From assembly GCA_028748975.1 (NCBI GenBank), contig JAQTPI010000004.1, positions 14,734 through 78,733 on the forward strand: a stretch of 64,000 bases of DNA, in the 5' to 3' direction. Under the pieces are notes generated by a model, which was given only the letters and a program-made list of their open reading frames with translations, did not search any database and was not told where the DNA came from. The stretch is from Patescibacteria group bacterium (lineage in GTDB: Bacteria > Patescibacteriota > Patescibacteriia > UBA2196). A program made the position numbers and the translations under genes. Positions 14,129-16,677 of the stretch are shown here, one piece after another; positions within the stretch are counted from its first letter, which is position 1; each line of letters begins with the position of its first letter.

Positions 14129-16216
14129 ATGAAAGAAAAATCTGAAAATAAAACATTATCTATTGCCTTTGGAATAATTTTGGGCGTGCTTTTATTTTTC
14201 TTTGGCAAGCTGTGTCTGGCCGCTGTTTTTCCCGGCATTGATTTGCCGACTTTTGAAGAAAGGAGAGCGGCTTACATTAAAGACCAGGGGCAAAGCGTCA
14301 GCGGCGATTTTCCCTACTCCATGAGAATACCGCTTTTTGCCTGGCTGGAAACACCAGAGCAAAACAAAGGACGAATTAGCGAGGAAATTGGATACATGAC
14401 CAGTATGGGCGATGATTGCAGTAGTGGACAGCAAGATTGGAGCAATTGCTGGTGGACCGGCGACCACCCCAACACCATTGTCGCCAGTTATGTTTATTAC
14501 AAATATTATCAGGATAAAAAAGTTATTTATGATTCAGACGCGGCCAGAATCAGAGAAAAATTATTTTCCATCGCCGAAATGGGCACCAAAAAGGACTTGG
14601 CCAAAACTTTTTGGGGCTGCGACGGCAATTATTTTTATCGTTATTTTGTGACTGGATATCTTTACGCCGTCAGAATTGGCGGGCTGGGCAAGGCGTATTT
14701 TGATAACGTGCCAACCTGTGCCAATAAGTTCACTTACCAGGGCCGAAAATACACTAGTGGAAATTATTACGAGGCAAAACAATTTTATAGCGATTATCTG
14801 GGGTACACCATGGATTCCTTGCTGAAAAGTGGAGACAACGAGGATTTTGGCAATTACTATTATTCCCAAATTCAATCCATTGCTGCTGTTTATGATTTTA
14901 GTCCGGACGCGCAACTGAAAAGAAAGGCGAAAATGCTCTTGGATTGGCTGAACTTCACTTATGCTGTCGGTTTTAGCGTCGGACATTTTGCCGACGGCCA
15001 TGGCCGCACCTATTTTGAATATCACGGGCGAGTGATGGATAATTTTCCTTTTTCCACTTTTTTCTATCTTGATAAACACCTGGCCGAACAGCTGCAAATG
15101 TGGTCCAATTCCCAAGAATTTTATATTTCCGCTTACCGCTATCCGGAGGTGATGAGAAAAATTTTTGAAAAAATAAACGGTCCGAATATGTCGGAAACCG
15201 ACGGTGATTATTATCGGATTGTGCGCGGCAACGATCCGCGGCTGGGCTGTGAAAAAACAGATCGGGGAGAGAAATGCTATCGCTATGAATATGTGACGCC
15301 GTATTATAATCTGGGCGGTTCTGGTTTGGGCACGGGCTGGGAGTTGAATATCAAAAGCGAGACATTGCCGTTTCGGGTTTGGATAAATTCTTGCAACAAG
15401 GTTTATGAAAGAGGCTGCAACGGGCAGCTGACTTGGGGCTGGAGCGAACTGTTTAGAACAGGAGCTTTGGGTTACCAATATAAAAACGCCATTTTCTATT
15501 ATGGCGGCGGTAACATCCAGCAAGAGATTGGCAACGGTTCTTGGTCAGAGACGGCGGAATATGATTATAAAGATGGCTGGGGGGATGAAAGAAAGTGGCA
15601 GTTTTTTAGAAAAGAAGGCGTGGCTGTGGCGGCGGAAGTCAGAGGCAATGGCCCTTCGGCGCTGGAAGTGGTAAAACTGGGCGTGGATTATCCGGATTTC
15701 AACTCTTTCATTGGGGCGGTGAAGAGAAATTCTAAATTAAGCTGGGATGGTTTTACCACCAGTAAGGGCTTCACCATTACCAAAGGATTTGTTGATTATG
15801 GTTCGGAATATACCAAATTGCCTTTTGACCGGCTGGAAGTTTGGGAGGGACATGTTAATAAAAATGATGAGAAAAAAATTGTTGATTGGAATAACAATGT
15901 GATGACAGTGACACAAGGCAATTTAACGTGCAAATATAATTTTAACAGCTGGACTTTTTCTGGTAATGGCTGCGCGGGCCAGGGCGCCGCTTACAAGGCC
16001 GATTTCAACTGCGACGGGGTGATAAATATTTCCGATTTTGGAATTTTGCTGTCGCACTGGGGGCAGACGGAGAAAATTAAAGAGTATCAAAACGCCCAGT
16101 GCGGCGTGGCAAGAAGCTTGGATTTGGCGGCGAATAATCGAATTGACACCAGTGATTTAAGCGCCTTGCTTTCCTGTTGGGGCACGCCGGAGGAGGAAGT
16201 GTGCATGGAGAAGTGA
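14129..16216 (+). CDS. Secreted protein (695 aa) with the same C-terminal dockerin-like module as 12154..14043.
   Basis: It has an N-terminal signal anchor. The C-terminus DFNCDGVINISDFGILLSHWGQ ... NRIDTSDLSALLSCWGTPEEEVC is near-identical to the module of its neighbour. Confidence 0.7.
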   Translation: MKEKSENKTLSIAFGIILGVLLFFFGKLCLAAVFPGIDLPTFEERRAAYIKDQGQSVSGDFPYSMRIPLFAWLETPEQNKGRISEEIGYMTSMGDDCSSGQQDWSNCWWTGDHPNTIVASYVYYKYYQDKKVIYDSDAARIREKLFSIAEMGTKKDLAKTFWGCDGNYFYRYFVTGYLYAVRIGGLGKAYFDNVPTCANKFTYQGRKYTSGNYYEAKQFYSDYLGYTMDSLLKSGDNEDFGNYYYSQIQSIAAVYDFSPDAQLKRKAKMLLDWLNFTYAVGFSVGHFADGHGRTYFEYHGRVMDNFPFSTFFYLDKHLAEQLQMWSNSQEFYISAYRYPEVMRKIFEKINGPNMSETDGDYYRIVRGNDPRLGCEKTDRGEKCYRYEYVTPYYNLGGSGLGTGWELNIKSETLPFRVWINSCNKVYERGCNGQLTWGWSELFRTGALGYQYKNAIFYYGGGNIQQEIGNGSWSETAEYDYKDGWGDERKWQFFRKEGVAVAAEVRGNGPSALEVVKLGVDYPDFNSFIGAVKRNSKLSWDGFTTSKGFTITKGFVDYGSEYTKLPFDRLEVWEGHVNKNDEKKIVDWNNNVMTVTQGNLTCKYNFNSWTFSGNGCAGQGAAYKADFNCDGVINISDFGILLSHWGQTEKIKEYQNAQCGVARSLDLAANNRIDTSDLSALLSCWGTPEEEVCMEK

Positions 16217-16291
16217 GGGAGACAAAGCCTGCCCTGAGCGACCATAGGGAGTCGAAGGGCTCCGTTCAAACCCGGGAAGACAATATTAAAT

Positions 16292-16603
16292 ATGAAAAAA
16301 ATAATTGAATATTTTGTTTATATTTTAACTAATAACAAAAAATCAATGTTTTATGTCGGCCAATCAAATAATTTAATTCGTCGGACATGGCAACATAAAC
16401 ACAAACTCATTAATGGTTTTACTAAAAAATATAATCTTGATAAACTTGTTTATTATGAAATTTATGTGACGTTAGAGCAAGCACTAAAGAGGGAAAAACA
16501 ACTTAAGGGTTGGACAAAAGTAAAAAAGATAAATTTAATTAAAAAAATAAATCCCGAACTAAAAGATTTTTCCGATGATTGGTGGCATAAAAATTTGATG
16601 TAG
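16292..16603 (+). CDS. Stand-alone GIY-YIG nuclease domain protein (103 aa).
   Basis: YFVYILTNNKKSMFYVGQSNNLIRRTWQHK ... GFTKKYNLDKLVYYE ... REKQLKGW contains the GIY..YVG, R..QH and conserved E/N hallmarks. It is paralogous to 40046..40357. Confidence 0.7.
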   Translation: MKKIIEYFVYILTNNKKSMFYVGQSNNLIRRTWQHKHKLINGFTKKYNLDKLVYYEIYVTLEQALKREKQLKGWTKVKKINLIKKINPELKDFSDDWWHKNLM

Positions 16604-16621
16604 ATTATACTATAAAATCAT

Positions 16622-16677
16622 GTGATCCTTCGACTTCAGCCCCGCTGTTGCGGGGCTTTCGCTCAGGATAGACTAAA
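16622..16677. repeat. Family-A palindromic element (terminal inverted repeats gatccttcg / cgctcaggata with the internal hairpin agccccgc-tgtt-gcggggct).
   Basis: It shares a consensus with more than 10 other copies in the window, for example 22114, 28916 and 52744. Confidence 0.75.

What the first reader, a model, noticed from the sequence alone, without database searches (positions are those of the whole stretch)
16205..16677. Mini GIY-YIG nuclease genes bracketed by the palindromic-element family
Both 103-aa GIY-YIG ORFs (16292 and 40046) are flanked on each side by family-A elements or relatives. The elements lie at 16228-16262 and 16622-16677 for the first gene, and at 39988-40038 and 40358-40479 for the second. 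The 40046 gene's stop codon lies inside an element. Stand-alone GIY-YIG domains are homing-endonuclease-like. Finding them next to abundant non-autonomous elements suggests a selfish nuclease-plus-MITE system in which the nuclease could mobilise or target the elements.
Basis: inference. Interest (0 to 1): 0.55.

Follow-up and report, generated by a model that had tools for sequence, protein, structure and literature searches.

The report
Ssn ssDNA nucleases with hairpin repeats
The two tiny GIY-YIG genes and the palindromic elements around them are a real, non-random pairing, but they belong to the Ssn nuclease / hairpin-repeat system described in 2025, so this is a new example (in a Patescibacteria genome) rather than a new kind of system.

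Summary
Both 103-aa ORFs (16292-16603, 40046-40357) are GIY-YIG proteins. All four intergenic spaces next to them carry a copy of one hairpin-repeat family, which has about 15 copies in the 64 kb window.

This matches the Ssn/SRM system of Chenal et al. 2025 (PMC11893778):
- The window proteins align with the 94-aa N. gonorrhoeae SsnA ortholog at E=4e-26 and 2e-20.
- They keep the three residues whose mutation kills SsnA.
- The repeats share the NTS layout: (T/C)GTC, an AT-initiated stem, a loop, the complementary stem ending in AT, then C.

In 80 homolog loci from more than 20 phyla, 75 have such repeats within 400 bp. Density is 4.4/kb near the gene against 0.29/kb further away. Stem triplets covary.

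By homology, the most likely mechanism is orientation-specific binding of the hairpin in single-stranded DNA, with a cut a few nucleotides 5' of it.

The idea that it mobilises them is not shown, although several things fit an insertion-sequence-like past:
- inverted flanking repeats;
- variable gene contexts;
- an insertion inside a macA-macB operon;
- in-frame repeats inside lgt.

Verdict: new member of a known kind, modest interest.

The parts
16292..16603 (+). ssn1: 103-aa single-domain GIY-YIG protein of the Ssn family
   Evidence: Pfam PF01541 at E=5.6e-14. 41% identical to the N. gonorrhoeae SsnA ortholog, E=4e-26. Y10, Y21 and E68 are conserved. GC 25% against 43% for the window.
40046..40357 (+). 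ssn2: 103-aa paralog, 57% identical to ssn1, lying between macA-like and macB-like genes
   Evidence: Pfam PF01541 at E=7.9e-14. 35% identical to the N. gonorrhoeae SsnA ortholog, E=2e-20. Identity to ssn1. Neighbouring genes.
16228..16265 (+). Degenerate SRM upstream of ssn1. Stem GCCCT/AGGGC, no 5' GTCAT.
16623..16671 (-). SRM downstream of ssn1. CCT type (GTCTATCCTGAGCGA...GTCGAAGGATC) with an inner GC hairpin.
   Evidence: DNA fold -12.6 kcal/mol, z = -3.6.
39990..40036 (+). SRM upstream of ssn2. CCC type with a long loop hairpin.
   Evidence: Fold z = -4.1.
40359..40386 (+). Short canonical-length SRM that starts 1 nt after the ssn2 stop codon
40432..40476 (-). SRM, TCC type, in inverted orientation, just upstream of the macB ATPase start
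4003..4038 (-). SRM (GTCATTCCC...GGGAATC), intergenic
22115..22183 (-). SRM of the AGTTTATCCCGAGCGA subfamily with a long inner hairpin
23986..24040 (+). SRM (CCT type) inside the lgt reading frame
24111..24138 (-). SRM (TCC type) inside the lgt reading frame. With 23986-24040 it forms a 53-aa in-frame insert.
   Evidence: Pfam LGT profile positions 1-101 and 106-240 lie on either side of the insert.
24419..24444 (+). SRM inside the lgt reading frame
24455..24480 (-). SRM inside the lgt reading frame. This is the only copy in the window that matches the published SRM search pattern.
28917..28966 (+). SRM, AGTTTATCCCGAGCGA subfamily
35252..35279 (-). Short SRM (CCT type). Its ATGAC supplies the likely murC start codon.
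36753..36792 (+). SRM (CCT type) that contains the last codons and the stop codon of murC
52747..52798 (-). SRM, AGTTTATCCCGAGCGA subfamily

Best explanation
The window carries two members of the Ssn family, which are small single-domain GIY-YIG endonucleases specific for single-stranded DNA. It also carries their cognate Ssn-related motifs (SRMs), which are oriented hairpin repeats.

**Inferred mechanism, by homology to N. meningitidis SsnA.**
- When DNA is single-stranded (incoming transforming DNA, or replication and repair intermediates), an SRM folds into a hairpin.
- The outer stem begins with AT, is preceded by (T)GTC and is followed by C.
- Ssn binds this hairpin on one strand only and cuts a few nucleotides 5' of it. 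It does not act on duplex DNA or RNA.

**Likely consequence in the cell (inferred).** Cutting SRM-bearing single strands would change how often DNA around SRM-flanked genes recombines.

**Origin of the cassettes (inferred).** Each gene is tightly bracketed by SRMs. This is the family-wide signature and most likely a relic of, or a still active, cassette-type insertion. Examples are the 0.5-kb SRM-ssn2-SRM-SRM block inside a macA-macB operon and the SRMs sitting in frame inside lgt.

**Shown here:** family membership by sequence, the repeat architecture, and the gene-repeat association. **Inferred:** enzymatic activity, physiological role and mobility.
For: **Published system.** Chenal et al. 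2025 (PMC11893778):
- SsnA is a 94-aa protein of CDD family cd10448. It binds the NTS repeat CGTCATTCCCGCGMAVGCGGGAATCYRG only as single-stranded DNA and cuts upstream of it.
- 71% of homolog genes have at least one SRM nearby and 42% have SRMs on both sides.

**Protein evidence.**
- A 94-aa N. gonorrhoeae ORF sits among 16 NTS copies in 3.3 kb.
- It aligns with ssn1 at E=4e-26 (41% identity over 85 aa) and with ssn2 at E=2e-20.
- The residues mutated in the paper (Y6, Y17, E64) correspond to invariant columns Y10, Y21 and E68.
- Other small GIY-YIG families are far weaker matches: UPF0213 (PDB 1ZG2) E=0.44, SLX1 E=0.02.

**Repeat evidence in the window.**
- About 15 copies share TGTCAT-xyz-GAG...z'y'x'-ATC(TCG).
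- The stems carry matching changes on both sides: ATCCC/GGGAT, ATCCT/AGGAT, ATTCC/GGAAT, GCCCT/AGGGC.

**Repeat evidence in 80 homolog loci from more than 20 phyla.**
- The most enriched 8-mers in the flanks are TGTCATTC, TGTCATCC and GTCATTGC, together with GAAGCAATC and GAAGAATC.
- A generalised motif is present within 400 bp upstream in 62 loci, downstream in 68, on both sides in 55, and on either side in 75.
- Density is 4.44/kb near the gene, 0.29/kb further away and 0.10/kb in shuffles.
- The left-arm triplet predicts the complementary right-arm triplet in 75-90% of cases, with almost nothing off the diagonal.

**Association inside the window.** P=0.0015.
Against: - The published SRM search pattern matches only one site in the window (24452-24481) and almost none of the 80 loci. 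The repeats qualify only under a broader definition that I built here.
- The top CDD hit (cd10448) could not be checked.
- The N. gonorrhoeae protein is a proxy for the N. meningitidis query. I could not retrieve CAX49033.1 itself.
- Short SRMs fold no better than shuffled sequence (z about -0.1 to -0.5). The evidence for their stems is covariation, not folding energy.
- The SRM upstream of ssn1 lacks the GTC that governs cleavage in Neisseria.
- No activity data exist for any member from Patescibacteria, or for SRMs with 20-40 nt loop inserts.
- The role in transformation is known only for Neisseria.
Confidence: 0.82

Rival explanations
1. The SRM-ssn-SRM block is an autonomous selfish mobile cassette, like an insertion sequence or a REPIN/RAYT pair. 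In this reading Ssn makes the cuts that move the cassette or let it home, and it spreads solitary SRMs as non-autonomous derivatives.
For: - The dominant layout in 54 loci with repeats on both sides is inverted: upstream repeat '+' and downstream repeat '-' in 34 of 54, against 25% expected. This gives outward-facing TGTCAT...ATGACA ends.
- The gene is bracketed closely. Median distances are 42 nt upstream and 29 nt downstream.
- The closest ssn1 homologs (65-70% identity) lie in unrelated gene contexts and often at contig ends.
- DNA similarity between loci, including across phyla, stops at the gene plus its SRM flanks.
- None of 80 related macA-macB operons has an ssn gene at the junction that holds ssn2 here.
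- SRMs sit in frame inside lgt.
- ssn GC content is below that of its surroundings in 80 of 80 loci.
- The authors of PMC11893778 raise the same hypothesis.
Against: - No transposition, excision or homing has been observed.
- A GIY-YIG hydrolytic nuclease has no known strand-transfer chemistry.
- The two copies in the window are only 57% identical in protein and 73% in DNA over 171 nt, so there has been no recent duplication here.
- No target-site duplications or empty sites in close relatives were available. The best macB relatives are only 67% identical or less.
- The low GC content may simply reflect a protein rich in K, N, I and Y.
- Flank similarity between loci may come only from SRMs being alike everywhere.
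- ssn2 shows a (+,+,-) layout, not the simple inverted one.
Confidence: 0.3
2. The repeats are ordinary REP-like regulatory or terminator hairpins with no functional link to the nuclease. The GIY-YIG genes sit near them only because both occupy intergenic DNA.
For: SRMs lie mostly at gene ends. Several overlap start or stop codons. This would suit a role in transcript ends or stability. Short copies have weak predicted folding.
Against: - Density is 15-fold higher within 400 bp of ssn genes than in the further parts of the same loci, across 80 loci.
- The in-window P is 0.0015.
- Published direct binding and cleavage of such repeats by four family members.
Confidence: 0.03
3. The genes are classical free-standing or intron-borne GIY-YIG homing endonucleases that cut duplex DNA at an allele lacking the gene.
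For: Weak sub-threshold similarity to the group I intron endonuclease family TIGR01453 (23 bits) and to the PHROG homing-endonuclease family phrog_314 (E about 1e-4).
Against: - The proteins are 103 aa, only the catalytic domain, with no NUMOD or helix-turn-helix DNA-binding module.
- The scores are far below the curated cut-off of 56 bits.
- There is no intron, intein or phage context.
- Similarity to SsnA is far stronger.
Confidence: 0.03

Closest known systems
Ssn nucleases with NTS/SRM repeats (N. meningitidis SsnA; Chenal et al. 2025, PMC11893778)
   Same: - A single-domain GIY-YIG protein of about 94-103 aa with the same catalytic residues.
- 35-41% identity to the N. gonorrhoeae ortholog.
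- The gene is bracketed by oriented hairpin repeats laid out as GTC, an AT-initiated stem, a loop, the stem ending in AT, then C.
- A repeat starts right after the stop codon in both N. gonorrhoeae and ssn2.
   Different: - The host is a Patescibacteria MAG.
- There are two diverged paralogs in one 24-kb stretch.
- The stem sequence is ATCC(C/T)GAG rather than ATTCCCGCG.
- Most copies carry 15-40 nt inner hairpins in the loop, so the published search pattern misses them.
- Five of 15 copies lie in frame inside a gene. In Neisseria, 2% of NTS copies are inside genes.
REP / RAYT and REPINs (IS200/IS605-related Y1 transposases with repetitive extragenic palindromes)
   Same: - One small nuclease gene flanked by inverted copies of a short hairpin repeat that is dispersed through intergenic DNA.
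- The repeat is recognised as a hairpin in single-stranded DNA.
   Different: The enzyme fold and chemistry differ: a hydrolytic GIY-YIG nuclease here, an HUH/Y1 enzyme with a covalent intermediate there. No transposition has been shown for Ssn.
Rickettsia palindromic elements (RPEs; from my own knowledge of Ogata et al. 2000)
   Same: Short palindromic repeats that can sit in frame inside protein-coding genes, as the SRMs do in lgt here. PMC11893778 lists Rickettsia among SRM-rich genomes.
   Different: I did not test whether RPEs and these SRMs are related in sequence.
GIY-YIG homing endonucleases (I-TevI, I-BmoI)
   Same: The catalytic fold and motif.
   Different: Those enzymes are 200-270 aa with a separate DNA-binding domain. 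They cut duplex DNA and live in introns or phage genomes.

Membership tests
Ssn family (cd10448) with SRM repeats | Single-domain GIY-YIG protein shorter than 150 aa | tested here: met
   Both proteins are 103 aa. PF01541 covers residues 6-81 and there is no other domain.
Ssn family (cd10448) with SRM repeats | BLASTP to Neisseria SsnA with E<1e-10 and at least 75% query coverage (the paper's criterion) | tested here: met
   Tested against the 94-aa N. gonorrhoeae ortholog (L001 1525-1809), used as a proxy for CAX49033.1. E=4e-26 over 85 of 94 aa and E=2e-20 over 89 of 94 aa. These are pairwise E-values.
Ssn family (cd10448) with SRM repeats | Catalytic residues equivalent to SsnA Y6, Y17 and E64 | tested here: met
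   Columns Y10, Y21 and E68 are invariant in the 13-sequence alignment.
Ssn family (cd10448) with SRM repeats | Top CDD hit is cd10448 (GIY-YIG_unchar_3) | not testable with these tools
   No CDD or rpsblast is available. Indirect support: UPF0213 (PDB 1ZG2) scores only E=0.44.
Ssn family (cd10448) with SRM repeats | At least one match to the published SRM pattern HGTCWYN(0-2)YYVSBRHN(0-5)WNVSBRGN(0-2)RNCYNB within 500 bp on both sides | tested here: not met
   There is only one match in the whole window (24452-24481), and it is not next to either gene. The pattern also misses almost all of the 80 homolog loci. It allows loops of 5 nt or less and a Neisseria-type stem.
Ssn family (cd10448) with SRM repeats | Flanking oriented hairpin repeats with the NTS layout: GTC 5' of an AT-initiated stem, and C straight after the stem | tested here: met
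   - ssn2: 39990-40036, 40359-40386 and 40432-40476 all fit.
- ssn1: 16623-16671 fits with GTCTAT. 16228-16265 is degenerate and has no GTC.
- The same layout is found in 75 of 80 homolog loci, with stem covariation.
Ssn family (cd10448) with SRM repeats | Strand-specific binding and cleavage of ssDNA, with no activity on dsDNA or RNA | not testable with these tools
   This needs purified protein and oligonucleotide substrates.
GIY-YIG homing endonucleases | Catalytic domain joined to a DNA-binding domain, with scores above the family cut-off | tested here: not met
   TIGR01453 scores 23 bits against a cut-off of 56 for ssn1 and gives no hit for ssn2. The proteins consist of the catalytic domain only.
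REP/RAYT (IS200/IS605-like) | HUH/Y1 transposase encoded between the repeats | tested here: not met
   The encoded protein is GIY-YIG. The resemblance is in layout only.
MITE | Terminal inverted repeats matching an autonomous transposon, plus target-site duplications | not tested
   I made no systematic search for target-site duplications. The elements are single hairpins of 25-70 nt, closer to REP-type repeats.

The most novel reading that the evidence does not exclude
SRM-ssn-SRM cassettes are, or recently were, autonomous mobile elements of a kind not yet demonstrated. In this reading a hydrolytic GIY-YIG ssDNA nuclease cuts just outside outward-facing TGTCAT ends on opposite strands. Solitary SRMs are its non-autonomous offspring, able to land inside operons and even in frame inside essential genes such as lgt. 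The two paralogs in this genome would each service their own stem subtype: CCT around ssn1 and CCC around ssn2.
Probability: 0.3. Interest if true: 0.65.

Novelty: new member of a known kind. Interest (0 to 1): 0.3.

Why it matters
So the signal is strong and easy to see.

The instance adds a few useful points:
- The family and its repeats occur in a reduced Patescibacteria genome, with two diverged paralogs.
- The published motif pattern misses a large branch of the family, whose repeats follow a simple structural rule: GTC, an AT-initiated stem, a loop of any length, the stem ending in AT, then C.
- The flanking repeats are mostly inverted, like insertion-sequence ends.
- The repeats can sit in frame in an essential gene.

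These points sharpen the open question of whether Ssn elements are mobile. They also offer new enzyme-site pairs for ssDNA tools.

Tried and rejected
- **Published SRM pattern.** One hit in the window and one near-gene hit across 80 loci. It is too narrow for this branch, so I replaced it with k-mer enrichment and a generalised structural motif.
- **Generalised motif on the window alone.** It is not specific: 11 hits against 5.4 in shuffles. For the window I therefore relied on the paired half-site scan, 8 hits against 0.1.
- **Folding energy.** Short SRMs do not fold better than shuffled sequence. I used covariation instead.
- **Does SRM stem subtype track the protein sequence?** Only a weak difference (120.6 against 108.1 bits), and it is confounded by phylogeny. 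28 of 75 loci carry two or more subtypes. Inconclusive.
- **Exact-protein look-ups.** ssn1 is on one 4.7-kb contig that duplicates the window. ssn2 is not on record. No extra genome context was gained.
- **Empty-site test for ssn2.** The closest macB relatives are only 67% identical or less. The missing ssn gene at their junctions suggests an insertion but is not a strict empty site.
- **Databases.** PDB, PADLOC, PHROGs and NCBIfam gave only generic GIY-YIG similarity.
- **Supplements.** The paper's supplementary files are not held, so CAX49033.1 itself could not be used.
- **Further copies.** No other ssn copies or pseudogenes are in the window.
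Full report
**1. What is in the sequence**

- Each hits the Pfam GIY-YIG catalytic domain over residues 6-81, at E=5.6e-14 and 7.9e-14, and nothing else.
- They are 57% identical in protein and 73% identical in DNA over 171 nt. They are therefore old paralogs, not a recent duplication.
- tblastn finds no further copy or fragment in the window.
- ssn1 lies between a 695-aa protein of unknown family and ligA.
- ssn2 lies between a HlyD/MacA-like gene (38332-39978) and a MacB-type ATPase (40489-41205) and permease (41350-42582).
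- The exact ssn1 protein is recorded in NCBI from a Patescibacteria-group MAG.

**2. The elements**

Reading the intergenic DNA shows one repeat family. Its consensus is TGTCAT-CC(C/T)-GAGCGA, then a variable and often hairpin-forming insert, then GTCGA-(G/A)GG-ATCTCG.
- A scan that needs both half-sites within 70 nt finds 8 copies against 0.1 in shuffles.
- Adding degenerate and short copies gives about 15 in 64 kb.
- Ten of 44 intergenic gaps hold a copy, and all four gaps next to the GIY-YIG genes do (P=0.0015).
- The ssn2 stop codon ends 1 nt before the element's T of TGTCAT. It abuts the element rather than lying inside it.

**3. This is the Ssn/SRM system**

A literature search led to Chenal et al. 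2025 (PMC11893778).
- N. meningitidis SsnA is a 94-aa single-domain GIY-YIG protein of CDD family cd10448.
- It binds the NTS repeat CGTCATTCCCGCGMAVGCGGGAATCYRG only when the DNA is single-stranded and only on one strand. It cuts a few nucleotides upstream.
- The GTC 5' of the palindrome governs cleavage. The C just after it governs binding.
- Loop identity is dispensable, and extensions at the loop are tolerated.
- Across RefSeq, 71% of homolog genes have an Ssn-related motif (SRM) nearby and 42% have one on both sides.
- In Neisseria the enzyme lowers transformation by NTS-bearing DNA.
- The authors note that NTS-ssnA-NTS looks like an insertion sequence. They suggest domestication and do not test mobility.

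**4. Membership tests run here**

I could not fetch CAX49033.1. However, a tblastn of ssn2 against the plasmid collection hit two N. gonorrhoeae chromosomes that are filed there as plasmids.
- The hit is a 94-aa ORF embedded in 16 NTS copies within 3.3 kb, where none is expected by chance.
- It has Y at position 6, Y at 17 and E at 64, the residues mutated in the paper.
- ssn1 aligns to it at E=4e-26 (41% identity over 85 aa) and ssn2 at E=2e-20. This meets the paper's criterion of E<1e-10 with at least 75% coverage.
- The three catalytic residues are invariant in a 13-sequence alignment.
- Other small GIY-YIG families are remote: UPF0213 (PDB 1ZG2) E=0.44, SLX1 E=0.02, and TIGR01453 at 23 bits against a cut-off of 56.

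One defining feature, taken literally, fails. The published SRM search pattern matches only 24452-24481 in the window. The cause is the pattern's short loop (5 nt or less) and Neisseria-type stem, not a different kind of element. The window repeats keep the NTS layout: (T/C)GTC, an AT-initiated stem, a loop, the stem ending in AT, then C.

**5. Independent test of the association**

A scan of one genome per GTDB species returned 80 loci with homologs (44-63% identity) from more than 20 phyla.
- The published pattern hit almost none of them.
- The most enriched 8-mers in the 400-bp flanks were TGTCATTC, TGTCATCC, GTCATTGC, GTCATTCT and GTCATGCT, together with GAAGCAATC, GAAGAATC and AAGGATCT.
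- A structural definition (GTC plus a 6-nt stem beginning with AT, then its complement, then C) is met upstream in 62 loci, downstream in 68, on both sides in 55 and on either side in 75.
- Density is 4.44/kb near the gene, 0.29/kb further away in the same loci and 0.10/kb in shuffles.
- A covariation test that does not presuppose pairing shows that the left-arm triplet (TGC, TCT, CCT, GCT, TCC, CCC, TTC) is followed by its own complement plus ATC in 75-90% of cases. It is almost never followed by another type's complement.
- Folding energy alone is unconvincing for the short copies (z about -0.1 to -0.5). It is strong only where an inner GC hairpin is present (z -3.6 and -4.1).
- A Planktothrix plasmid homolog, sitting between an MmeI-type restriction enzyme and DISARM drmA, shows the same flanks.

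**6. Architecture and hints of mobility**

- Among loci with repeats on both sides, the nearest upstream copy has the gene's orientation in 50 of 61 loci. The nearest downstream copy is inverted in 50 of 68.
- The inverted pair occurs in 34 of 54 loci. Median distances are 42 nt upstream and 29 nt downstream.
- This gives outward-facing TGTCAT...ATGACA ends. ssn1 follows this layout. ssn2 is (+,+,-).
- The closest ssn1 homologs sit in unrelated contexts and often at contig ends.
- DNA similarity between loci, sometimes across phyla, ends at the gene plus its repeat flanks.
- In 80 related macA-macB operons no ssn gene occupies the junction. In several the junction is 3-100 nt, against 510 nt here.
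- ssn GC content is below that of its surroundings in all 80 loci (mean -11 points) and is 25% and 29% here against 43% for the window. The lysine- and asparagine-rich composition of the protein may explain this.

All of this fits a cassette that has moved. None of it shows that Ssn moves it.

**7. Best explanation and rivals**

- *Best explanation (confidence about 0.8 for identity).* These are two Ssn-family ssDNA endonucleases with their cognate SRM hairpins. By homology they act through strand-specific hairpin binding and a cut 5' of the motif. Their physiological role in this organism is inferred, not shown. The likeliest role is action on SRM-bearing single strands during DNA uptake, replication or repair.
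- *Selfish mobile cassette.* This remains open (about 0.3) and is the most interesting unexcluded possibility.
- *Chance co-location, and classical homing endonuclease.* Both are disfavoured, at about 0.03 each.

**8. Verdict**

Mobilisation is unproven, and the homing-endonuclease and MITE labels do not fit. The feature is a new member of a known kind and of modest interest.

Noticed in passing
window 23611-24687 (lgt), inserts at 23983-24141 and 24419-24480: Five SRM copies lie in frame inside the lgt ORF. The Pfam LGT profile matches positions 1-101 before a 53-aa SRM-pair insert and positions 106-240 after it. This recalls the in-frame palindromic elements of Rickettsia. It contrasts with the 2% of NTS copies found inside genes in Neisseria.
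   Followed up: partly
window 35252-35279 and 36753-36792: The murC-like gene is bracketed by SRMs. These supply its probable ATG (35274, from the motif's ATGAC) and its last codons plus the TGA stop (36760-36762).
   Followed up: partly
window 23255-23600 and 36795-37045: A 250-340 nt intergenic element occurs twice, upstream of lgt and upstream of ftsW/rodA. The two copies are 74% identical, with conserved blocks and differences that look compensatory. Rfam gives no match. It may be a structured RNA or a leader.
   Followed up: partly
window 10307-10362, 12040-12146, 14037-14132, 20497-20639, 21301-21356, 28973-29022, 37028-37092, 38153-38202, 42601-42650: Many intergenic regions carry short tandem runs of AT-rich octamers, such as CATTAAAG and GTAATAAG and their complements, next to gene starts or ends. 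Their function is unknown.
   Followed up: no
window 19540-20055 and 30048-30121; 32089-32485: There is a cluster of six tRNA genes on the - strand. One Rfam tRNA match spans 149 nt (19907-20055), which suggests an insert or intron, and ARAGORN does not call it. A full-length tmRNA lies at 32089-32485(-).
   Followed up: partly
window 45306-51938 and about 55600-63200: Very large ORFs and ORF fragments are built from repeats of a GGNVGIGTT(N/A)P-type unit (direct-repeat families D1-D5, D8). This is probably a giant repetitive surface protein family.
   Followed up: no
window 10440-10545 and 11170-11285: Two near-identical promoter/leader-like segments (TTGACAAnTTTCnAAAAATGCGCTATACTTA ... GCCCGCCTTCnTAAACGAAGTCGAGGCAAGGAGG) precede two small divergent genes. 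They may be a shared regulatory leader.
   Followed up: no
L002 (Planktothrix agardhii plasmid NZ_LR882964.1, 18847-19131): An Ssn homolog with SRM arrays on both sides sits between a type IIL MmeI restriction-modification gene and DISARM drmA, that is, inside a defence island.
   Followed up: no
plasmid collection records NZ_CP119140.1 and NZ_CP119142.1: Two 2.17-Mb N. gonorrhoeae chromosomes are filed as plasmids in the plasmid collection. This is what made the Neisseria ssnA locus reachable.
   Followed up: yes
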